From a phage, in NCBI GenBank assembly GCA_024449565.1, contig GCA_024449565.1_4810.1: DNA of 64,000 bases, one strand, 5' to 3'. The notes beneath the pieces were generated by a model. It was not told where the DNA came from. It did not search any database and saw only the letters and a program-made list of their open reading frames with translations. The translations under genes were made by a program, and so were the position numbers. The stretch's first letter is position 1. Each line of letters begins with the position of its first letter. This document shows positions 29,904-44,242 of the stretch, in pieces.

Positions 29904-30743
29904 ATGGCCGAAGCAATCAAAGTATTATCTAAAGAAGAAAAACAAGCCGCTGCAGCAGAACGTCGTCGCGTAGCTGAAGAAAAACGTTTGGCTAAAAAGA
30001 AAGAAGCCGAAGAAAAGCGCCAGAAGCGCGAACAGGAAAAACAAGCCAAGCGTGAAGAAGCCGCGCTGAAACGCAAGCAGGCTGCTGACGAGAAGGCTCA
30101 GAAGCGTGCTGAAGAAGCAGCTAAGAAAGCTAAAGAGCGTGCAGAAAAGGCCGCTGCTAAGAAAGCAGAGCGTGAAGCCGCTAAAGCAGCAAAAGAAATC
30201 GAAAAGGCAAAGGCTAAAGAAGAAGCCAAGCGCCTGAAAGCCGAGCAGGCTGCGGCCAAGAAAGCAGAGCGTGATCAAGCCCGTGCTGCAGCGAAGGCCG
30301 AAAAAGAGAAGGCCAAAGAAGAAGCTAAAGCGAAACGCAAGGCAGAGCGTGAAGCTGCTAAGATTGCGGCGAAAGAAGCTGCAGAACAGCAGAAAGAACA
30401 GCGTAAGAAAGAAGCTGAAGAACGTCGCAAAGCCATCGCAGAACGTAAGGCTGCTAAAAAGGCAAACGGTCAGCGTCGTGCAAAAGCCACTCACTTCATC
30501 TACACTGGCAATGGCCTGAGCCAGCCGCAAGAGCATTCCACCCGTGGACGCGTTCTGGCGGCGATCAAAGAAGGCGAAGTTGGCGTGGCACAGTCTATCG
30601 ATGAGCTGGGCGAAAAAGTTAAAGATCAACTGTTTGGCGCTTCCGTTCGCTCCTACCTGAGCAAGCTGGAAGAGATGGGACACATCGAGTTTGTCGATGT
30701 TGAATCCAACGACGATGCTGAAGACGGTGATCAAGCGGAATAA
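29904..30743 (+). CDS. Lys/Ala/Glu-rich low-complexity protein with structured C-terminal domain
   Basis: About 190 aa of KAE-rich sequence then an 85-aa C-terminal domain; preferred-codon usage unlike neighbours; own terminator. Confidence 0.55.
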   Translation: MAEAIKVLSKEEKQAAAAERRRVAEEKRLAKKKEAEEKRQKREQEKQAKREEAALKRKQAADEKAQKRAEEAAKKAKERAEKAAAKKAEREAAKAAKEIEKAKAKEEAKRLKAEQAAAKKAERDQARAAAKAEKEKAKEEAKAKRKAEREAAKIAAKEAAEQQKEQRKKEAEERRKAIAERKAAKKANGQRRAKATHFIYTGNGLSQPQEHSTRGRVLAAIKEGEVGVAQSIDELGEKVKDQLFGASVRSYLSKLEEMGHIEFVDVESNDDAEDGDQAE

Positions 30744-30877: not shown

Positions 30878-31873
30878 ATGAACATGAAACAACCTGTAAT
30901 GATTATCGGCGGCGGCTTGGCAGGACTTATTACCGCGTGTCACTTCCCGAACTCCATTGTGTACGAAGCAGGGGAACGAGCGCCACAGCACAAGGCGCTG
31001 CTACGCTTTCGCGGCGAAGAAGTAAGCCGTATTACCGGAATCCCTTTTAAGGCCGTGACAGTTGACAAGGCTGTGTATTTTCGCGGTAACTACTATAACG
31101 ACCATTGCCCAATCAACCTTGCCAATATGTATTCGATGAAGGTCACCAATCAGTTTGGTAGCCGTTCAATCATGAAGCTTAAAACTGCAACGCGTTATAT
31201 TGCGCCGGACGACTTCTATGATCAGCTTGTCGATAAACTGGGTGATCGCATATTCTTCAATACTCCGGTTGACACGCTTTGCGGCTATAGCGAGACGCCA
31301 ATCATCAATACATCGCCGCTGCCAGTCATGATGAAGCTGGCAGGAATTGATCAAAATATTGACTTTTCATTCGATAAAGCAAACATTCGCGTTTACCGCT
31401 TTAAGATTAAACGTAAGTGTGAACTGTATCAAACCATTTACTTTCCTGATTGCTCCGTCAGAACTTACCGTGCATCAATCACTGGCGACACATTGATCAT
31501 TGAAACAATTCCTTTGGTTAGCGTAAGTGAAGCCGCAGTTGAAGCCGCTGGCGGCATTACTCGTTACCGTGACATTAAGTTGCGTGCAGAAGTTGACGAA
31601 GTGTTGACGGCCTTTGGTCTTTCATGGAGTGACATTTCTCTCGAAGAAGTTGAAAAGGTCGACCAGAAGTATGGCAAGATTGTCGACATTCCGAAAGACT
31701 TGCGACACGCTCTACTCCTACAGCTGACCATGGATTTGAACGTATTCAGTGTCGGTCGATTCGCTACTTGGCGAAACATTTTGCTTGATGACGTTGCTCA
31801 TGACCTTGTTGAAGTTGAAAAACTCATCAAAGCAAATAACTATCAAAAATTTGCTTATATTGCTAATAAATAA
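30878..31873 (+). CDS. FAD/NAD(P)-binding Rossmann-fold oxidoreductase
   Basis: N-terminal dinucleotide-binding motif VMIIGGGLAGL; 331 aa. Confidence 0.45.
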   Translation: MNMKQPVMIIGGGLAGLITACHFPNSIVYEAGERAPQHKALLRFRGEEVSRITGIPFKAVTVDKAVYFRGNYYNDHCPINLANMYSMKVTNQFGSRSIMKLKTATRYIAPDDFYDQLVDKLGDRIFFNTPVDTLCGYSETPIINTSPLPVMMKLAGIDQNIDFSFDKANIRVYRFKIKRKCELYQTIYFPDCSVRTYRASITGDTLIIETIPLVSVSEAAVEAAGGITRYRDIKLRAEVDEVLTAFGLSWSDISLEEVEKVDQKYGKIVDIPKDLRHALLLQLTMDLNVFSVGRFATWRNILLDDVAHDLVEVEKLIKANNYQKFAYIANK

Positions 31874-31939: not shown

Positions 31940-32386
31940 ATGAAACGCATCACTGGAATCGCGCTTGCCGCAACTGCTATTCTCGGAACCATGTATATGG
32001 AAGCGACTGAAGCTGCCATCCGTACTTCCGATTCAATCGCTGTTTACGATTGCGAAGCGATGGACGGCAAGACCGCAGCGACGACTGGCGCAACAATTAC
32101 CACTTACATCGGTGTGAACGAGCAGGAAGGTCTGAATATTCAGATTCAGGGATTCACCGGAAAAGGCGCCAACCGGACTCCGTGGATGCAGCGTTTCACT
32201 TTCGTTCAGCCTCGTTCGACTGGCGACTTTATTAACCTGATTGGTGAAAACCGTTCTGGTGCAGAAATCTTTACCTCAATGAGTTCTAATAATGAACCAA
32301 AGAAAAGTTTTCAGTTGCTTTATAACGCACAATTCGTTTATCATTGCACCTTCTCTGGTGATCAGCAACTAGTGAATTACCGTTAA
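31940..32386 (+). CDS. secreted or periplasmic protein
   Basis: N-terminal signal-peptide-like segment MKRITGIALAATAILGT; AGAGGA SD. Confidence 0.45.
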   Translation: MKRITGIALAATAILGTMYMEATEAAIRTSDSIAVYDCEAMDGKTAATTGATITTYIGVNEQEGLNIQIQGFTGKGANRTPWMQRFTFVQPRSTGDFINLIGENRSGAEIFTSMSSNNEPKKSFQLLYNAQFVYHCTFSGDQQLVNYR

Positions 32387-32399
32387 TAGGATAATTAAA

Positions 32400-33209
32400 A
32401 TGAAAGTTGAATTAATTCGATACACCCAAGATGCACTTGACCTTTTGCTGGAAACAAAGAACACGCGCATGACTGGTAAGCCAGTCTCTGAGATGACAGA
32501 ATCAGAGAAGCAAGAGCACTGGCGCTACATGCTTGATACAATCAAGTCTCCTTTTGACTTTGTGGACTATATCTTTGATATCACAGCTGTATCAAAGAAC
32601 ATGACCCATCAGATGGTACGCACACGCACAGGCGCATATCAAGAACGCACCAGCCGCGCTCAGGAGTCGTCTGCATTTGATGCGATTCGTCCGAAGGCAT
32701 TCGAGCACCCTTCTGACTGCAATGATGAAAATGCATTTGATGATGTGCACATAAGAAATCACTCATTGGCAGAGAAGTGGGATGATGCGATGGCCACGAT
32801 TGACGCTCTATACCAAGAGCTTCGCGCGGCTGGCGCAGAGATTCAAGATGCACGTGCCGTGTTGCCTTCTAATATGCAAACGCATATCATGGCAAAGTTC
32901 AACTTGCGCACTCTACAACAAATGGCCTCTAACCGCTTGTGCACGCGTACTCAAGGCGAGTATCAAGAAGTATTCCGTGCAATGGTTGCGGAAGTCCTTA
33001 AGGTGCACCCGTGGGCCAATCCTTTACTACAGCCGCAGTGCATCGGTATGGGTAAGTGTGCATTTCCTCGTCACGGTAAGGCCCATTGCCCATGGTATCG
33101 TGATTGGATGGATACGACTGCACAGCAAGAAGAATTGCGCATTCAGTTTTGGGATGCCGCGCCAATCACCAACAATCCAGTTGCTAAAGATGGAGTATCA
33201 AAAGGATGA
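32400..33209 (+). CDS. ThyX-like flavin-dependent thymidylate synthase homolog with non-canonical motif
   Basis: SPFDFVDYIFDI ... THQMVRTRTGAYQERTSR aligns with the ThyX core, but the RHR-X7-S signature reads RTR-X7-TS. Confidence 0.5.
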   Translation: MKVELIRYTQDALDLLLETKNTRMTGKPVSEMTESEKQEHWRYMLDTIKSPFDFVDYIFDITAVSKNMTHQMVRTRTGAYQERTSRAQESSAFDAIRPKAFEHPSDCNDENAFDDVHIRNHSLAEKWDDAMATIDALYQELRAAGAEIQDARAVLPSNMQTHIMAKFNLRTLQQMASNRLCTRTQGEYQEVFRAMVAEVLKVHPWANPLLQPQCIGMGKCAFPRHGKAHCPWYRDWMDTTAQQEELRIQFWDAAPITNNPVAKDGVSKG

Positions 33210-34078
33210 GCATTAAAAACAGCGAAATCTTAAATGTATTCGACCTTGACGGAACGCTGTTTGATGACCGTTGGCGCTTAGACCGCATTAAGGTGGCAGG
33301 TCCGTTGTCAGACTATGATGATTATCACAGCGGTATTGGTTATGATCAGTTCTATCCTCACATTGCATCAGCAGTAGAGTCGGCATCTCTTCGCGGTGAG
33401 GCGGTTGAATATTGGACTGCAAGGCCAGAAAAATACAGACAAGTGACTTTTGAACGTCTGGACAATGTTTTTCCTTTTGATGAATTTACAATCAAGATGA
33501 GAGACTATGGCGACAAACGTCCATCAACTATTATGAAATCTGCATGGCTATCGCACGCATTGCGGCACGGCGATTATCGAATCATCAACGTATTCGACGA
33601 CCGACAAGACGTACTCGCGCGGATGCAAGATGAAGCATTGTATTATAATTCCGTTGCTCAAAATAAAATCGCTTTTACATTTAATCTTTGCAAGGCAGGT
33701 GAAGTGGTGCAACAATTAGCAATTGATCCAAGCGCAACAGGGCAAGAAGAGACTAAGGCTGTGGAAGTTGAACAATCTCCGGCAACTGCCGCCGATATTC
33801 TTGATGCAATGGCAGCAACCTTCCGTGAGCGCAACGCTGTCTATGGCGATAACGCTGTGATGGTAGGTCAGGTTATGCAAGTGCTTTTCCCTAATGGCGT
33901 GACGTTGAAAACGCCGGAAGACTACCACATGTGGCATCTGTTCGAGCTTAAGATTGTCAAGCTTACACGCTTCGCAATCAGCGGCCTGAAGCACGAAGAC
34001 TCTATACACGATGATGGTGTTTACAGCGCCATGTGTGAACGTCTTGTTAACACCCATAATATTAATTTCAATAAATAG
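33206..34078 (+). CDS. HAD-superfamily phosphatase with C-terminal domain of unknown function
   Basis: HAD motif I VFDLDGTLFDD near N-terminus; ATGA overlap with the ThyX-like gene. Confidence 0.55.
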   Translation: MSIKNSEILNVFDLDGTLFDDRWRLDRIKVAGPLSDYDDYHSGIGYDQFYPHIASAVESASLRGEAVEYWTARPEKYRQVTFERLDNVFPFDEFTIKMRDYGDKRPSTIMKSAWLSHALRHGDYRIINVFDDRQDVLARMQDEALYYNSVAQNKIAFTFNLCKAGEVVQQLAIDPSATGQEETKAVEVEQSPATAADILDAMAATFRERNAVYGDNAVMVGQVMQVLFPNGVTLKTPEDYHMWHLFELKIVKLTRFAISGLKHEDSIHDDGVYSAMCERLVNTHNINFNK

Positions 34079-34143: not shown

Positions 34144-34827
34144 ATGAAAAAAGTAATTGTTGTAACTGGCTGCAATTCCGGTCTTGGTAAGTCCATTTTT
34201 GACACCCTTGGCGCTTACGGTCATGAAGTTGTCGGTATTGATTTGGAGAACGGCTATGACATCCGTAACGCGAAACAGATGAAAGAGCTTCTCTCTCAAT
34301 ACGACGTAGAAGGCTTGATCAACTGCGCTGGCGTCAACTCCAACAACTGGTTCGAAGATGTTAACTACGAAGAGTTCAATCGCGTTATGCACACCAACGC
34401 CTTCTCTTTCGTCAACACGACTCAGGCCGCGCTGAAAAGTCTTATTGACAACAAAGGTTTTGTGATCAACATCGTTTCCAACGCTGCGCATATTCCTATG
34501 ACGTCCAGCTTGTGTTATAATGCTTCCAAGGCTGCTGCGCTCATGATTAGCAAGCAGATGGCTCACGAGCTTACGCCTAAATACGGGATCACGGTATTCT
34601 CTATTAGTCCTAACAAGCTACGTGGTACTGGCATGTCCAAACAGATTGAAGATGCTGTTTGCGCGACTCGCGGCTGGACTCCTGAATACGCTGCTGAATA
34701 CCAGAAAAAGGCACTGATGAATGGATTGGAGACTGAGCCGCAAGTAATTGCTGACTTCATTCGCCATATCTTAATTACGGGCGCATGGCGCTTTATGTCT
34801 GGTACTGATATTCCATTTGGGAAATAA
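34144..34827 (+). CDS. short-chain dehydrogenase/reductase (classical SDR)
   Basis: TGCNSGLG cofactor motif, NCAG, and YNASK catalytic Tyr/Lys. Confidence 0.7.
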   Translation: MKKVIVVTGCNSGLGKSIFDTLGAYGHEVVGIDLENGYDIRNAKQMKELLSQYDVEGLINCAGVNSNNWFEDVNYEEFNRVMHTNAFSFVNTTQAALKSLIDNKGFVINIVSNAAHIPMTSSLCYNASKAAALMISKQMAHELTPKYGITVFSISPNKLRGTGMSKQIEDAVCATRGWTPEYAAEYQKKALMNGLETEPQVIADFIRHILITGAWRFMSGTDIPFGK

Positions 34828-35021: not shown

Positions 35022-35573
35022 ATGCCACATTTTAAAATTGAACAAATCGCCCTGTCAATCCCAGATGCTCAACGCGCTCAGGACTTCCTGGCTAAAATAG
35101 GCCTGACAGAATGGTTCCATGATCACGTTGTTGCTACTGGTCGCGTATTTGAAGCTGATTACTTTAAAGGTCAGCGCGGCGATTGCACCAATGAAGCTAA
35201 CTTGCGCTTCAACTATCAGGCTGGCAACGGTACTGATGGCGGCGCTGGTAAGCCTCTTGAGCTTGAAATCCTTGACTATACAAAAGGTTGCAACTGGATT
35301 CGCGAAAACATCGAATACATCGATGCGCACGACAATCAGGTTAGCCATCTTGGTATGCACGTGACTGCCGCTGAACTTGCTGAATGGCGCAAGTTCTTTA
35401 AAGAAGAAGGCATTCAGGTTGCGCAGGAAGTTGTGACCGACTCTCACACCAACCCAAACATTGCTGGTCAGCGTCGTTACAACTATGTAATCTTTGATAC
35501 GCGTGAAATCATCGGCGTTGATTTGAAGTTTATCGTGCGGTTGAATCAAGACGGTACTCCGTACACTGCATAA
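35022..35573 (+). CDS. VOC-family (glyoxalase/dioxygenase-like) protein
   Basis: Two beta-alpha-beta-beta-beta-like modules (KIEQIALSIPDAQRAQDFLAKIGL and HLGMHVTAAELAEWRKFF); AAGGAAA SD. Confidence 0.5.
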   Translation: MPHFKIEQIALSIPDAQRAQDFLAKIGLTEWFHDHVVATGRVFEADYFKGQRGDCTNEANLRFNYQAGNGTDGGAGKPLELEILDYTKGCNWIRENIEYIDAHDNQVSHLGMHVTAAELAEWRKFFKEEGIQVAQEVVTDSHTNPNIAGQRRYNYVIFDTREIIGVDLKFIVRLNQDGTPYTA

Positions 35574-41070: not shown

Positions 41071-41334
41071 ATGGTACGCATCCTTGAACGTTACAAAAAT
41101 GAATCTACTGGCGCAATCGCTTTCAAACGTCTTTTGGTCAAAGAAATTGACGGTATGTTCCGCGTTGTTAAAGAGTTTGATTATGGCAACGGTGCTGGGG
41201 TGAATACCGTTATTATGCCTGGTATCAAGGCATATAAAACATTAAAAGGCGCTGAGAAGGCTTTGGCGGCTTGGAAGTCTGAACGTTATCAAATGACCCG
41301 TGTTGAAGGTCTAATGCAAGAAGGTAAAATATGA
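41071..41334 (+). CDS. hypothetical protein
   Basis: 87-aa ORF after promoter; AGAGGAA SD. Confidence 0.45.
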   Translation: MVRILERYKNESTGAIAFKRLLVKEIDGMFRVVKEFDYGNGAGVNTVIMPGIKAYKTLKGAEKALAAWKSERYQMTRVEGLMQEGKI

Positions 41335-41582
41335 GCAACAAAGTATTGTTAATTGGTCCGCCAGCTTGCGGCAAAACGACTAGCGCAAAGAATATTGCTG
41401 AAGTCATGGGATTGAATAACATTTACGACATAGGAAAGGGTGGAGAAGACAATTTTAAGTCCGCACTCAAAGATGACAAGGAAGGTCTTTATGTCACTGT
41501 GAAATTACCGCGCGGCATTCGCCGTGAACAATTTGATATTGTAATTGAAGTCAACAGAGGATTTATCGATGTCAGATATTAA
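41331..41582 (+). CDS. small P-loop NTPase-like protein
   Basis: Walker A GPPACGKTT near N-terminus; only 83 aa. Confidence 0.35.
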   Translation: MSNKVLLIGPPACGKTTSAKNIAEVMGLNNIYDIGKGGEDNFKSALKDDKEGLYVTVKLPRGIRREQFDIVIEVNRGFIDVRY

Positions 41583-43103: not shown

Positions 43104-43622
43104 ATGATAGAAAGAATTGTACCGCTCCTGAAGATTCTGGCCCTTGTCGGCGCGTTTGCCGCTGGATCATACGTTGAAGACCTTAAGCAAACCAACGCAT
43201 CACTGGCCAAGGATAATCAATATCTGACATCGCTTAATGAGCGTAAGGACAAGATAAATGCACTCGAAGAGCAAATTGCAACTTTACAGGTTGAATCGGC
43301 ATCGGCATATGAGAAGGGTCGCCAGGAAGCGCAACTGGTTGCTGATGACACTATTGCTCGTTACAAGTCTGGGAATATCAAGCTGCGCGAGCAACTCAGC
43401 TGCTCCCGTGAGTTACTCAGGAGTGTGCCCGACTCTGCGACCACTGGACGCCTCTCTATCCCAGAAGGAAACTGTGGACTATCAGAAGAAGATGTCAGAT
43501 TTCTTGTTCAGTTCGCCGCAGAAACAAATCGATTAAAAGAGAAAGTTAATAGCTTGATTGATACTTATAATCAGGCTAAAATAAAAATCGATCAATTCAA
43601 TGCATCAAAGGAAAATAAATGA
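43104..43622 (+). CDS. Rz-like inner-membrane spanin (i-spanin)
   Basis: N-terminal TM segment IVPLLKILALVGAFAAGSYV then coiled-coil periplasmic domain; contains an embedded +1-frame lipoprotein ORF. Confidence 0.5.
   Translation: MIERIVPLLKILALVGAFAAGSYVEDLKQTNASLAKDNQYLTSLNERKDKINALEEQIATLQVESASAYEKGRQEAQLVADDTIARYKSGNIKLREQLSCSRELLRSVPDSATTGRLSIPEGNCGLSEEDVRFLVQFAAETNRLKEKVNSLIDTYNQAKIKIDQFNASKENK
43309..43536 (+). CDS. Rz1-like outer-membrane lipoprotein spanin (o-spanin), embedded
   Basis: +1 frame inside the i-spanin gene: basic n-region, hydrophobic core, lipobox-like ISSC, Pro-containing mature peptide; start uncertain (43258, 43309 or 43345). Confidence 0.4.
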   Translation: MRRVARKRNWLLMTLLLVTSLGISSCASNSAAPVSYSGVCPTLRPLDASLSQKETVDYQKKMSDFLFSSPQKQID

Positions 43623-44242
43623 AACAGATTTATGCAAACATTCGCCATTGGGCTTCTGACCGTAACATCATCCAAGGTTGCGACCTTAAGGACCAATACC
43701 CGAAGCTTATCAGCGAGTTTGGGGAGTTAACCGACCACGTTGATCAACTCCATGACCTTGTGTTCTTCGACCCTGAAATTGGCTATACAGAGCAGGCCAT
43801 CTGTGACTTGCAGGCCGCAATTAAGGACGACATTGGCGATTGCCTTGTTGTGTTGACCATCCTGGCAGCGCAAAACGGTACTGAAATCGAAAACATTAAT
43901 GGCGGCGGTTGCGCTGATAAAGGTGCTCACCCTCATTCATTTATCCTTCGCCTGGCAAAGACCCTTGGACGACTTGGTGATGCTATTGCCAAGAATCAGA
44001 CCATGGATATTGACGTCACCATCATGGCCGCAGTCGATTACCTTTCCGGCGTAGCTCATGATTATGGCCTTCGCTTATCCGACTGTGCGCAAGCGGCCTA
44101 CGAAGACATCAAGGACCGCAAAGGTGTCATGTACAACGGAACGTTCATCAAATCTACTGATCCAGCTTATGAGCACTCCTGCAAAATGGTAAAGAAGCTG
44201 GAACTTGAAGACCGTGTGATCAGAGAAGTTACAGGACAATAA
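43619..44242 (+). CDS. MazG-like nucleoside triphosphate pyrophosphohydrolase
   Basis: EFGEL ... DIGDCLVVLTILAAQNG resembles the MazG E-x-x-E and helix motifs. Confidence 0.5.
   Translation: MKQIYANIRHWASDRNIIQGCDLKDQYPKLISEFGELTDHVDQLHDLVFFDPEIGYTEQAICDLQAAIKDDIGDCLVVLTILAAQNGTEIENINGGGCADKGAHPHSFILRLAKTLGRLGDAIAKNQTMDIDVTIMAAVDYLSGVAHDYGLRLSDCAQAAYEDIKDRKGVMYNGTFIKSTDPAYEHSCKMVKKLELEDRVIREVTGQ

What the first reader, a model, noticed from the sequence alone, without database searches (positions are those of the whole stretch)
32400..33209. ThyX homolog with altered active-site signature (RTR-X7-TS instead of RHR-X7-S)
The protein aligns with the ThyX core but the RHR motif histidine is replaced by threonine and the serine position is shifted. 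Established knowledge: the RHR-X7-S motif is the ThyX family signature. Inference: altered substrate or chemistry, for example a different C5 substituent or a dCMP substrate.
Basis: partly seen in the sequence, partly recalled or inferred. Interest (0 to 1): 0.65.

Follow-up and report, generated by a model that had tools for sequence, protein, structure and literature searches.

The report
Divergent phage ThyX, possible thymidine-hypermodification enzyme
The gene encodes a real but strongly divergent flavin-dependent thymidylate-synthase relative from a phage-only subfamily, always paired with an unknown flavoprotein, and it is the best candidate for starting the sugar-type thymine modification recently found in sister phages.

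Summary
ORF 32400..33209 (+) encodes a 269-aa Thy1/ThyX-fold protein whose signature reads R74-T75-R76-x7-T84-S85, not RHR-x7-S. The RTR form is invariant in the 120 closest homologues.

The His-to-Thr change is the least informative difference:
- That position flips among T/H/Q/S/N at least 29 times within the subfamily, and in solved ThyX it contacts FAD, not the substrate.
- The larger differences are loss of the His53–Tyr91 pair (Ile48, Ala87), a new invariant His70, His178 to Arg183, and an all-or-none four-Cys C-terminal module.
- Every dUMP- and FAD-binding arginine is kept, so dUMP, not dCMP, is the likely substrate.

The gene sits next to a UDP-galactopyranose-mutase/amine-oxidase-fold flavoprotein in 79/79 and 68/69 assessable viral loci, usually followed by a HAD phosphatase.

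The window is a Wifcevirus. A 2025 preprint reports that the sister genus Pbunavirus, which has the same ThyX-like gene, carries sugar-type hypermodified thymidine at TG sites, with no known biosynthetic genes.

Best reading (about 0.42): it is the entry enzyme for that modification, making a 5-hydroxymethyl-type product. An ordinary dTMP synthase is nearly as likely (about 0.40). Nothing has been tested biochemically.

The parts
32400..33209 (+). ThyX-like (Thy1-fold) flavoenzyme gene, 269 aa
   Evidence: Pfam Thy1 at E=9e-30. PHROG 85. AF2 model with Foldseek hits to solved ThyX. NCBIfam thyX equivalog scores 80.3 bits, below the 87.9 cut-off.
32619..32660 (+). Variant ThyX signature R74-T75-R76-x7-T84-S85-R86-A87. 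In T. maritima numbering this is H79T, S88T and Y91A.
   Evidence: Alignments. RTR is invariant in 120 homologues.
32541..32561 (+). Codons I48..F54 ('IKSPFDF') replacing the canonical 'H53-E-T-P-F-E-H59'. The folate- and flavin-stacking His53 is Ile, and His59 is Phe.
   Evidence: Role of H53 from PMC11940539.
32607..32609 (+). His70, a subfamily-specific invariant histidine at the T. maritima R74 position
   Evidence: Invariant in alignment A1. His in 105 of 123 representatives.
32940..33089 (+). Four-cysteine module (C181, C214, C220, C230). C181 lies two residues after R179 (=Tm R174). The other three lie in the confidently modelled C-terminal extension.
   Evidence: Invariant in A1. All-or-none in 67-69 of 123 representatives and absent from T. 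maritima ThyX and L5 gp48. pLDDT 92-94 for residues 200-250. Metal binding is inferred, not shown.
30878..31873 (+). FAD-binding oxidoreductase of UDP-galactopyranose-mutase/amine-oxidase fold (331 aa, phrog_4828, no Pfam match). It is the conserved partner gene of the ThyX-like gene.
   Evidence: AF2 pLDDT 87. Foldseek top hits are UGM 4dsh and MAO-B. Adjacent to ThyX-like in 79/79 and 68/69 assessable viral loci. Also present in PB1, F8 and Rhizobium phage RHph_Y65.
33206..34078 (+). HAD (PNKP-type) phosphatase domain fused to an unknown C-terminal domain. It is translationally coupled to the ThyX-like gene.
   Evidence: Pfam HAD_PNKP at E=5e-8 with a DLDGT motif. phrog_4889. A homologue was detected (tblastn, E<=1e-4) in 73 of 80 viral loci, downstream in the rows inspected.
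34144..34827 (+). Short-chain dehydrogenase/reductase (FabG-like). Present in Wifcevirus and 37 of the 80 related viral loci; tblastn found no homologue in F8 1-50 kb, and none is annotated in the PB1 region shown.
   Evidence: Pfam adh_short at E=1e-31..
29904..30743 (+). Conserved protein of unknown function (279 aa, phrog_4765) upstream of the flavoprotein. It is syntenic with PB1 gp69.
43619..44242 (+). MazG-like nucleotide pyrophosphatase in the same replication module. Its link to the ThyX-like gene is speculative.
   Evidence: phrog_1992 at E=2.5e-61. A homologue is present in F8.

Best explanation
The gene encodes a catalytically competent but mechanistically divergent ThyX-family flavoenzyme. 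It binds FAD and dUMP as canonical ThyX does and installs a one-carbon unit at uracil C5.

It belongs to a phage-only subfamily with these features:
- It has lost the His53/Tyr91 pair that in T. maritima ThyX stacks on folate or reduced flavin and covers the reactive C5/N5 positions.
- It has gained an invariant His70, an Arg at the His178 position and, in this clade, a four-Cys module.
- It is genetically locked to a UGM/amine-oxidase-fold flavoprotein and usually to a HAD phosphatase.

I commit to the following reading. In the Wifcevirus/Pbunavirus lineage this enzyme is the entry step of the thymidine hypermodification recently found in Pbunavirus DNA. With the tyrosine lid gone, water would trap the exocyclic-methylene intermediate instead of reduced flavin reducing it, giving a 5-hydroxymethyl-dUMP-type product. 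Neighbouring sugar-type enzymes and unidentified DNA-level enzymes would then elaborate that product at TG sites.

Shown here: the fold, the motif, conservation of the nucleotide- and FAD-binding residues, the subfamily features, the gene pairing and the phage identity. Taken from the literature: the hypermodified thymidine in Pbunavirus and the restriction resistance of Wifcevirus. Inferred: the product, the role of the partner genes, and that Wifcevirus DNA is modified at all.
For: Fold and family.

Conserved residues: R74, R76, R86, R152, R170, R179, Q71 and E82 are kept and near-invariant across 123 representatives. By the structural review PMC6514825 these bind dUMP and FAD.

Loss of H53/Y91 as a unit: (H,Y) 11, (non-H,Y) 2, (non-H,non-Y) 110. 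Tyr is described as the lid shielding C5 and N5 from solvent. Y91 mutation slows flavin oxidation about 1000-fold, and H53 stacks on folate or FADH- (PMC11940539).

Scoring: below the curated thyX equivalog cut-off, 80.3 against 87.9 bits.

Gene pairing: the UGM-fold flavoprotein is paired in 79/79 loci, with a median stop-to-start gap of 1 nt, and in 68/69 loci from the reciprocal search. It also lies close by in the unrelated 206-kb phage RHph_Y65.

No other thymidylate-synthase-family gene: none was found in the window, in the flanks of 156 viral loci, or in F8 1-50 kb.

Literature on relatives: Pbunavirus F8 and 14-1, whose ThyX-like protein has the same RTR/TS/RA/Cys4 features, carry thymidine derivatives of 362 and 390 U. 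These replace about a quarter of T, in a TG context, and no known hypermodification genes are present (PMC12191111). TG accounts for 27% of T in F8. All characterised thymidine hypermodifications start from 5-hmdU made by a thymidylate-synthase-family enzyme or by TET/JBP (PMC8989533).

This phage: Wifcevirus phages resist type I, II and III restriction with 'no known genome protection mechanism', although the window has 14 EcoRI, 8 EcoRV and 8 EcoKI sites. Six-base palindromes are strongly avoided only when they lack TG/CA: 19/48 against 0/16, p=0.0015; GC-matched 11/16 against 0/8, p=0.002.
Against: - No member of the subfamily has been assayed.
- No flavin-dependent dUMP hydroxymethylase is known. 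In ThyX chemistry the reduced flavin sits stacked on the methylene intermediate, so blocking hydride transfer is not trivial.
- Three quarters of T in Pbunavirus DNA is ordinary thymine, and the modification is TG-specific. That implies a DNA-level step and is equally compatible with normal dTMP supply followed by an unrelated DNA-modifying enzyme.
- The subfamily lacking H53/Y91 is much wider than the lineage known to be modified. For example, actinophage 'ThyX-like' proteins lack the flavoprotein partner.
- All paired loci share the same exonuclease and polymerase module, so the synteny may partly reflect common descent.
- No 5-hmdU DNA kinase, glycosyltransferase or dTTP-exclusion enzyme was identified.
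- The palindrome test was post hoc, and the positive control F8 showed the same direction without significance (1/15 against 10/38, p=0.15).
- Wifcevirus also resists EcoRI and EcoRV, whose sites contain no TG.
Confidence: 0.42

Rival explanations
1. It is an ordinary auxiliary thymidylate synthase. On this reading it is a divergent but functionally canonical ThyX that makes dTMP from dUMP, CH2-THF and reduced FAD, raising dTTP supply for a phage that is more AT-rich than its host. The RTR motif and the other substitutions would be neutral or compensated drift, for example Arg183 replacing His178 and His79 at the FAD phosphates. The neighbouring flavoprotein would be a reductase partner or unrelated.
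For: - The Thy1 fold and all dUMP- and FAD-binding arginines are kept.
- Position 79 is highly labile, and RHR and RTR forms intermix in otherwise similar proteins.
- The Ser88 position tolerates T, S or A.
- It is the only thymidylate-synthase-type gene in the genome and lies in the replication module.
- In RHph_Y65 it sits near dUTPase and ribonucleotide reductase genes.
- Most T in Pbunavirus DNA is canonical.
- All public annotations call it thymidylate synthase.
Against: - The H53/Y91 pair is lost, although Y91 mutation costs about 1000-fold in T. maritima.
- It scores below the curated equivalog cut-off.
- This reading does not explain the near-obligate, often overlapping pairing with a UGM-fold flavoprotein and HAD phosphatase.
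- It leaves the Pbunavirus hypermodification without any candidate source of a C5-functionalised precursor.
Confidence: 0.4
2. It transfers a sugar carbon directly. The ThyX-like enzyme, with or through the UGM-like flavoprotein, would use a flavin-N5 iminium formed with an aldose or nucleotide-sugar anomeric carbon (UGM-type chemistry) in place of the methylene iminium. This would create a C-C bond between uracil C5 and sugar C1.
For: - The masses fit by my own arithmetic: dU 228 + pentose 150 - 18 + 2 = 362, and dU 228 + hexose 180 - 18 = 390, against the values.
- The folate-stacking His53 and the Tyr lid are lost, which could enlarge the second-substrate pocket.
- The partner has a UGM fold. 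From established knowledge, UGM forms flavin-N5-sugar iminium adducts.
- SDR and HAD neighbours are typical of sugar-nucleotide pathways.
Against: - This is purely inferential, and the same masses fit O-linked 5-hmdU derivatives.
- A nucleotide-level route cannot by itself explain TG specificity.
- There is no precedent for the chemistry.
- The partner protein is only fold-level similar to UGM, at 10-13% identity.
Confidence: 0.05
3. It acts on a different pyrimidine nucleotide (dCMP, UMP or CMP), as the first reader suggested for dCMP and as PolB does for UMP.
For: - The motif is divergent.
- The PolB precedent shows a ThyX paralogue with relaxed sugar specificity.
- Foldseek also hits PolB 4p5b.
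Against: - Arg179 (=Tm R174, Mtb R199), Arg152, Arg86 and Gln71 are invariant. Recognising a cytosine N4 amino group would be expected to need a change at the O4-contacting arginine.
- The modified base reported in relatives is a thymidine derivative, not a cytidine derivative.
Confidence: 0.04
4. It is a catalytically dead or repurposed protein, for example a nucleotide-binding regulator or scaffold.
For: Residues considered important in T. maritima ThyX (H53, Y91) are missing, and the score is below the equivalog threshold.
Against: There is strong purifying selection on exactly the FAD- and dUMP-binding positions over sequence divergence down to about 30% identity. The gene is retained in hundreds of lytic phage genomes.
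Confidence: 0.03

Closest known systems
Canonical flavin-dependent thymidylate synthase ThyX/FDTS (T. maritima TM0449, M. tuberculosis and H. pylori ThyX; mycobacteriophage L5 gp48)
   Same: It has the same fold (Foldseek TM-score about 0.6-0.74) and is a member of Pfam Thy1. The conserved residues are Arg78/80/90/147/165/174, Gln75 and Glu86 in T. maritima numbering, plus the Ser/Thr55 FAD contacts. The predicted substrate is therefore dUMP with an FAD cofactor.
   Different: The signature reads RTR-x7-T instead of RHR-x7-S. His53 is Ile, His59 is Phe, Tyr91 is Ala and His178 is Arg. There is a new invariant His70 and a C-terminal extension with four invariant Cys. Sequence identity to solved ThyX is only about 20%. 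It scores below the NCBIfam thyX equivalog cut-off. It is always paired with a UGM-fold flavoprotein. L5 gp48, translated here, has the canonical RHR..S..RY.
Actinophage 'ThyX-like thymidylate synthase' (e.g. Mycobacterium phage Nova gp68, Gordonia phage DoobyDoo gp82)
   Same: It belongs to the same divergent branch. The RHR histidine is replaced, His53 is lost, and the same four-Cys pattern (RLC...C-x5-C...C) is present.
   Different: Those proteins carry RQR, Phe at the Tyr91 position and Gln at position 178. They are longer (343-366 aa). The flavoprotein (FAD-like) search listed no Mycobacterium or Gordonia phage among its leading host groups; these two genomes were not examined directly.
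PolB, the ThyX paralogue of polyoxin biosynthesis (UMP/dUMP C5-methylase; PDB 4p5a/4p5b)
   Same: It is a precedent for a neofunctionalised ThyX paralogue, and it is a structural hit.
   Different: PolB is still a methylase and was only a weak sequence match to this protein (4p5a, E=0.5; 19% identity in the Foldseek alignment). Its motif residues were not examined here. It belongs to a natural-product cluster in Streptomyces, not to a phage replication module.
ThyA-family dUMP 5-hydroxymethyltransferases of phages with thymidine hypermodification (SPO1, PhiW-14, ViI, M6 systems)
   Same: The proposed role is the same: a thymidylate-synthase-type enzyme providing the C5-hydroxymethyl precursor at the nucleotide level in a phage with hypermodified T.
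   Different: The fold and mechanism are unrelated (ThyA cysteine/folate chemistry). The accompanying 5-hmdU DNA kinase and aGPT-Pplase genes of those systems are not recognisable here.
Folate/FAD-dependent uracil C5 modifiers MnmEG and TrmFO
   Same: They use flavin-N5 methylene-iminium relay chemistry. In MnmEG the methylene intermediate is proposed to be trapped by a nucleophile rather than reduced (PMC8989533).
   Different: They have different folds and act on tRNA, not on free nucleotides.

Membership tests
Thy1/ThyX superfamily (Pfam PF02511) | Significant match to the family profile, and the ThyX fold | tested here: met
   104.3 bits against a gathering score of 24.8. The AF2 model matches 1o26 and 6j61 at E about 1e-10.
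ThyX (flavin-dependent thymidylate synthase, functional equivalog) | The RHR-x7-S signature motif (Myllykallio 2002; used as a filter in PMC2826268) | tested here: not met
   The motif reads RTR-x7-T, and no RHR occurs elsewhere in the protein.
ThyX (flavin-dependent thymidylate synthase, functional equivalog) | Score above the curated NCBIfam TIGR02170 equivalog cut-off | tested here: not met
   80.3 bits against a cut-off of 87.9.
ThyX (flavin-dependent thymidylate synthase, functional equivalog) | dUMP-binding residues (Tm R78, R80, S88, R90, R147, R174, Q75, E86) | tested here: met
   R74, R76, T84 (conservative), R86, R152, R179, Q71 and E82 are present. The arginines are near-invariant in 123 representatives.
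ThyX (flavin-dependent thymidylate synthase, functional equivalog) | FAD-binding residues (Tm S30, T55, E58, H79, N163, R165, H178) | tested here: inconclusive
   T22, S50, D53, N168 and R170 are kept or conservatively replaced. H79 is Thr and H178 is Arg, which may be compensatory. Flavin binding was not measured.
ThyX (flavin-dependent thymidylate synthase, functional equivalog) | His53/Tyr91 pair (folate and flavin stacking; active-site lid and general acid) | tested here: not met
   The positions are Ile48 and Ala87. The pair is lost as a unit in 110 of 123 representatives. Roles are from PMC11940539 and PMC6514825.
ThyX (flavin-dependent thymidylate synthase, functional equivalog) | dTMP formation, thyA complementation, and a homotetramer with active sites at subunit interfaces | not testable with these tools
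   No experimental study of any PB1/Wifcevirus-type protein was found.
Known thymidine-hypermodification systems (5-hmdU pathway of M6, ViI, SP10, PhiW-14, PaMx11) | ThyA-family dUMP hydroxymethylase or TET/JBP, 5-hmdU DNA kinase (P-loop) and aGPT-Pplase transferase | tested here: not met
   tblastn found no ThyA homologue in the window. PHROG-based annotation of the near-identical Bas99 genome lists none of these. The preprint states that Pbunavirus lacks such genes. The only P-loop ORF found (41331..41582, 83 aa) is a strain-specific insertion.
PolB-type UMP/dUMP methylase | Substrate-selecting loop tyrosines and a polyoxin-cluster context | not tested
   There is only fold-level similarity to 4p5b, and the genomic context is a phage replication module.

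The most novel reading that the evidence does not exclude
The ThyX-like enzyme and its obligate UGM-fold flavoprotein partner form a new two-flavoenzyme system. It would attach a sugar-derived carbon, or a hydroxymethyl that is then glycosylated, to C5 of deoxyuridylate through a flavin-N5 iminium. This would create the C5-polyol and C5-cyclic-sugar thymidines (362 and 390 U) seen in Pbunavirus DNA and, by extension, protect Wifcevirus DNA from restriction. In its strongest form, the carbon that looks like the thymine 'methyl' would be sugar C1, a folate-independent C-C glycosylation of a nucleotide.
Probability: 0.06. Interest if true: 0.95.

Novelty: new variant of a known kind. Interest (0 to 1): 0.7.

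Why it matters
Three things would follow if the enzyme makes something other than dTMP.
- It would be the first flavin-dependent (ThyX-type) nucleotide hydroxymethylase or alkylase.
- It would give the missing entry point to the thymidine hypermodification just reported in Pbunavirus, the Pseudomonas phages most used in therapy.
- It would offer an explanation for the unexplained restriction resistance of Wifcevirus.

If it turns out to be a plain thymidylate synthase, the result is still useful. It would show that ThyX chemistry works without the His53/Tyr91 pair and the RHR histidine, residues that are treated as signatures and targeted in inhibitor design. It would also show that a large, phage-only subfamily with a probable metal site and a dedicated flavoprotein partner has been hidden under the annotation 'thymidylate synthase'.

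Tried and rejected
- **Canonical motif elsewhere in the protein.** None was found; only 'PRHG' occurs.
- **Sequencing error or pseudogene.** Rejected, because the variant is conserved in 120 homologues.
- **Literature on function.** Searches for a functional study of PB1/Wifcevirus ThyX, for mutations of the RHR histidine, and for ThyX in hypermodification found nothing direct.
- **The listing of cluster members on ten distant representatives.** All were unnamed metagenome proteins, so the result was uninformative.
- **Scan of 185,579 species genomes.** No cellular homologue of the clade was found. The only hit was a 567-bp contig in a Xanthomonas pisi assembly at 98% identity, which is probably contamination. 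The argument 'sole thymidylate synthase of a cell, therefore must make dTMP' is therefore not available.
- **A second thymidylate synthase in the same genomes.** No ThyA or canonical ThyX was found in the window, in the 156 viral loci or in F8 1-50 kb. Pseudomonas phage Y10, which has a ThyA hit, turned out to be an UNVERIFIED 68% GC record unrelated to PB1. RHph_Y65 was screened only over 66 of its 206 kb, so redundancy there is unresolved.
- **Restriction-site avoidance as the explanation for Wifcevirus resistance.** Rejected, because EcoRI, EcoRV and EcoKI sites are present.
- **A 5-hmdU DNA kinase.** The only P-loop ORF is an 83-aa strain-specific insertion.
- **C-terminal domain of the HAD fusion.** No Pfam or NCBIfam match.
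- **Geometry of the four cysteines.** This could not be measured because model coordinates are not exposed.
- **MnmC1-like identity of the flavoprotein.** Not supported; the top structural hits are UGM and amine oxidases.
Full report
**What is at the coordinates.** The window is about 96% identical in nucleotide sequence to Escherichia phage ManiWeber_Bas99 and about 94-95% identical to other Wifcevirus myophages. ORF 32400..33209 (+) encodes 269 aa. It has an AGGA ribosome-binding site, and its stop overlaps the start of the next gene (ATGA). It is a clear Thy1-family protein: Pfam PF02511 at E=9e-30 and PHROG 85 'thymidylate synthase'. Sequence similarity to solved ThyX is weak, with the best PDB hit at E=3e-4 and about 20% identity. 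An AlphaFold model built on 48 homologues (pLDDT 84.4) matches ThyX structures by Foldseek (6j61, 1o26; target TM-score 0.66-0.75).

**The motif.** Two independent alignments, phmmer against PDB and MAFFT with 132 sequences, give the same register. They place R74-T75-R76 on T. maritima R78-H79-R80, T84 on S88, S85 on G89, R86 on R90 and A87 on Y91.
- The serine is not shifted. The canonical Ser position holds Thr.
- No RHR occurs elsewhere in the protein.
- RTR is present in all 120 nearest homologues at 53-100% identity. The Ser88 position varies among T, S and A.

**The histidine is the least of the differences.** I collected 150 representatives of 50%-identity clusters and analysed the 123 full-length ones.
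- Position 79 is T in 66, H in 28, Q in 13, S in 7 and N in 5. It changes state at least 29 times on a neighbour-joining tree, and RHR and RTR proteins are interleaved.
- According to the structural review PMC6514825, the RHR residues H-bond the FAD phosphate and ribityl. The first Arg also contacts the isoalloxazine and dUMP.
- The histidine is thus a cofactor contact, and Thr could replace it. His178 to Arg183 (Arg in 89 of 123) may compensate.

The following differences define the subfamily.
- His53 becomes Ile48 (I, L or V in 108 of 123).
- His59 becomes Phe54.
- Tyr91 becomes Ala87 (V, T, F, A or I in most).
- Asn85 becomes Ala in most representatives (Gln81 in this protein).
- A new His sits at the T. 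maritima R74 position (His70; 105 of 123).
- A four-Cys set (C181, C214, C220, C230) is all-or-none across the family (67-69 of 123). It is invariant in the PB1/Wifcevirus clade and absent from T. maritima ThyX and from mycobacteriophage L5 gp48. L5 gp48 has the canonical RHR..S..RY.

His53 and Tyr91 are lost together: (H,Y) 11, (non-H,Y) 2, (non-H,non-Y) 110. PMC11940539 describes both residues in T. maritima ThyX. His53 stacks on the folate pterin or on FADH- and H-bonds Tyr91. Tyr91 is a proposed general acid, and its mutation slows flavin oxidation about 1000-fold. PMC6514825 calls the equivalent Tyr a lid that shields C5 of dUMP and N5 of FAD from solvent.

The residues that bind dUMP and FAD are kept and near-invariant: R74, R76, R86, R152, R170, R179, Q71, E82 and S50, with K66 replacing the Hp R66 / Mtb R87 arginine.

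The protein scores 80.3 bits against the curated NCBIfam thyX equivalog, whose cut-off is 87.9.

From this I conclude three things. The protein is under strong selection as a nucleotide-binding flavoenzyme. dUMP is the likely substrate. A dCMP substrate is disfavoured, because the O4-contacting Arg is invariant.

**Distribution.** The clade is viral.
- It occurs in 292 Pseudomonas (Pbunavirus) records at about 49% identity, in 27 Escherichia records, and in Serratia, Xanthomonas, Pantoea, Burkholderia and Rhizobium phage records.
- It also occurs in many metagenomic contigs of 40-75 kb.
- A scan of one genome per prokaryotic species found no cellular copy.

**Genomic context.** The gene lies in the replication module, in this order:
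1. Dda-like helicase
2. 279-aa unknown protein
3. 331-aa protein
4. 148-aa protein
5. ThyX-like
6. HAD(PNKP)-phosphatase fusion
7. SDR
8. two small proteins
9. DnaQ-like exonuclease
10. DNA polymerase
11. helicases, then further on a MazG-like pyrophosphatase and a ligase

PB1 and F8 are syntenic.

The 331-aa protein has no Pfam or PDB sequence match. It has a GxGxxG N-terminus, and its AlphaFold model (pLDDT 87) is a two-domain flavoprotein. The closest structures are UDP-galactopyranose mutases and monoamine oxidases (4dsh, query TM-score 0.67).

The pairing was tested in both directions.
- Starting from the ThyX-like protein, 79 of 79 assessable IMG/VR loci carry this flavoprotein just upstream. 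The median distance from its stop to the ThyX-like start is 1 nt, and 50 of 79 are within 50 nt or overlapping. A HAD-fusion homologue was detected (tblastn, E<=1e-4) in 73 of 80.
- Starting from the flavoprotein, 68 of 69 assessable loci carry the ThyX-like gene downstream.
- The two genes also lie four genes apart in the unrelated 206-kb Rhizobium phage RHph_Y65, next to dUTPase and ribonucleotide reductase genes.

One caveat applies. All the IMG/VR loci share the same exonuclease and polymerase module, so common descent contributes to the synteny.

No ThyA or canonical ThyX was found in the window, in these loci or in F8 1-50 kb.

**What is known about these phages.**
- The window nevertheless contains 14 EcoRI, 8 EcoRV and 8 EcoKI sites.
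- The preprint PMC12191111 shows that virion DNA of Pbunavirus F8 and 14-1 contains new thymidine derivatives of 362 U and 390 U. It interprets them as a tetrose sugar-alcohol derivative and a cyclised aldopentose derivative.
- These derivatives replace about a quarter of T, in a TG context. [quoted passage not shown]
- The preprint states that these phages lack the known hypermodification genes. It does not mention ThyX.
- F8 gp059 has the same RTR/TS/RA/Cys4 features as the window protein, and 27.4% of T in F8 is followed by G (26.2% in the window).
- PMC8989533 documents that the characterised thymidine hypermodifications start from 5-hmdU made by a ThyA-family dUMP hydroxymethylase, or in some contigs by a TET/JBP enzyme. 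It also notes that the ThyX-type exocyclic methylene intermediate could in principle be trapped by a nucleophile, as proposed for MnmEG.

**A sequence-level hint that this phage is modified too.**
- Of the 64 six-base palindromes, 19 are nearly absent from the window: 0-1 copies against 5-19 expected.
- None of the 19 contains TG/CA. All 16 TG/CA-containing palindromes are present at 6-48 copies (Fisher p=0.0015).
- Within the GC-matched class of palindromes with four G/C bases, the counts are 11/16 against 0/8 (p=0.002).
- F8 shows the same direction without significance (1/15 against 10/38, p=0.15). It shares 10 of its 11 avoided sites with the window.
- RHph_Y65 shows no avoidance.
- The test was post hoc and is suggestive only. 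It also does not explain the in vivo resistance to EcoRI and EcoRV, whose sites lack TG.

**Interpretation.** The robust conclusion is that this is a functional, strongly divergent ThyX-family enzyme acting on dUMP. It belongs to an uncharacterised phage subfamily with a dedicated flavoprotein partner. What it makes is open.

I rank the hypermodification-entry reading slightly first, at 0.42. In that reading the product is of the 5-hmdUMP type, because the solvent lid and the His53/Tyr91 gate are gone. It accounts for the active-site changes, the locked partner genes, the absence of any other source of a C5-functionalised precursor in a lineage shown to carry hypermodified T, and the restriction phenotype.

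The ordinary dTMP-synthase reading follows closely, at 0.40.
- It has the strong prior.
- It fits the lability of position 79.
- It fits the fact that most T in Pbunavirus DNA is canonical.
- It fits the TG specificity, which requires a DNA-level enzyme in any case.

The PhiW-14/SP10 precedent, in which thymine itself is formed from 5-hmdU after replication, is from my own knowledge. It means the last two points do not exclude a hydroxymethylase.

A more radical reading is direct transfer of a sugar carbon through a flavin-N5 iminium, using UGM-type chemistry. It fits the masses but has no other support (0.05). A dCMP or UMP substrate (0.04) and a dead enzyme (0.03) are unlikely.

**Novelty and score.** The fold and family are known, and the variant motif alone would be a minor curiosity. 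The finding is worth experiments because of the subfamily-wide loss of residues thought to be mechanistically important, the probable metal site, the obligate UGM-fold partner and the link to a newly discovered hypermodification whose genes are unknown. I rate it a new variant of a known kind, with interest 0.7.

Noticed in passing
window 30878..31873 (+): A 331-aa protein with no Pfam or PDB sequence match is predicted with confidence to be a compact FAD enzyme of UDP-galactopyranose-mutase/monoamine-oxidase fold. It lies immediately upstream of the ThyX-like gene in nearly all related viral contigs, often with overlapping stop and start. Public records annotate it variously as hypothetical, 'oxidoreductase', 'UDP-galactopyranose mutase' or, wrongly, 'polysaccharide deacetylase'.
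   Followed up: yes
whole window (64 kb): There is extreme avoidance of 19 six-base palindromes (for example GGATCC, GGTACC, CCGCGG, CTCGAG, CGATCG, AGATCT, TCTAGA; 0-1 copies each). None contains TG/CA, and all 16 TG/CA palindromes occur at near-expected frequency. Ten of the same sites are also avoided in Pseudomonas phage F8.
   Followed up: partly
whole window: GATC is strongly under-represented: 97 sites against 246 expected from base composition and about 276 from the Markov model. CCGG and CTAG are depleted about two-fold. HindIII (AAGCTT, 52 against 18) and CAGCAG (63 against 26) are enriched.
   Followed up: no
window 33206..34078 (+): A HAD (T4 PNK-phosphatase-type, DLDGT motif) domain is fused to a conserved C-terminal domain of about 110 aa with no family match. 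It is translationally coupled to the ThyX-like gene, and a homologue was detected in 73 of 80 related loci. It is annotated 'polynucleotide kinase/phosphorylase' but has no P-loop.
   Followed up: partly
window 32940..33089 (within the ThyX-like gene): Four cysteines (C181, C214, C220, C230) are invariant in the clade and all-or-none across the wider ThyX-like family. They are also present in actinophage ThyX-like proteins, Sulfolobus virus STSV1 and Clostridium phage CP26F. This suggests an undescribed Zn or Fe-S site next to the active-site helix. The geometry could not be checked.
   Followed up: partly
window 41331..41582 (+): An 83-aa ORF with a Walker A motif (GPPACGKTT) lies in a 237-bp insertion that is absent from the otherwise 98% identical ManiWeber_Bas99. 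It gives weak P-loop hits to thymidylate and dNMP kinase PHROGs.
   Followed up: partly
window 34144..34827 (+) and 35022..35573 (+): An SDR (FabG-like) gene and a 183-aa protein with a weak glyoxalase/dioxygenase-superfamily hit (E=0.002) lie between the HAD gene and the exonuclease. The SDR recurs in 37 of the 80 related viral loci but was not found in F8 1-50 kb and is not annotated in the PB1 region examined.
   Followed up: partly
window 31940..32386 (+): A 148-aa ORF with a hydrophobic, signal-peptide-like N-terminus is inserted between the flavoprotein and ThyX-like genes. Homologues were detected (tblastn, E<=1e-4) only in the three Wifcevirus loci among the 80 viral loci.
   Followed up: no
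L009 (NZ_JPLE01000177.1, Xanthomonas pisi DSM 18956, 567-bp contig): A tiny contig in a bacterial draft assembly is 98% identical at protein level to the C-terminal third of this E. coli phage ThyX-like protein. It is probably phage contamination of the assembly.
   Followed up: no
L168 / L010 (Rhizobium phage RHph_Y65, NC_070967.1): This 206-kb phage carries the flavoprotein plus ThyX-like (RNR variant, no Cys4) pair near dUTPase and RNR genes. It also carries a DHFR and a PurZ-like '2-aminooxy adenylosuccinate synthetase'. No ThyA was found in the 66 kb screened.
   Followed up: partly
L167 (OQ572411.1 'Pseudomonas phage Y10', UNVERIFIED): The 40.8-kb stretch of this record that was fetched is 68% GC, carries a host-like ThyA, and shows no similarity to the PB1 locus. 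It looks like bacterial DNA rather than a phage genome.
   Followed up: partly
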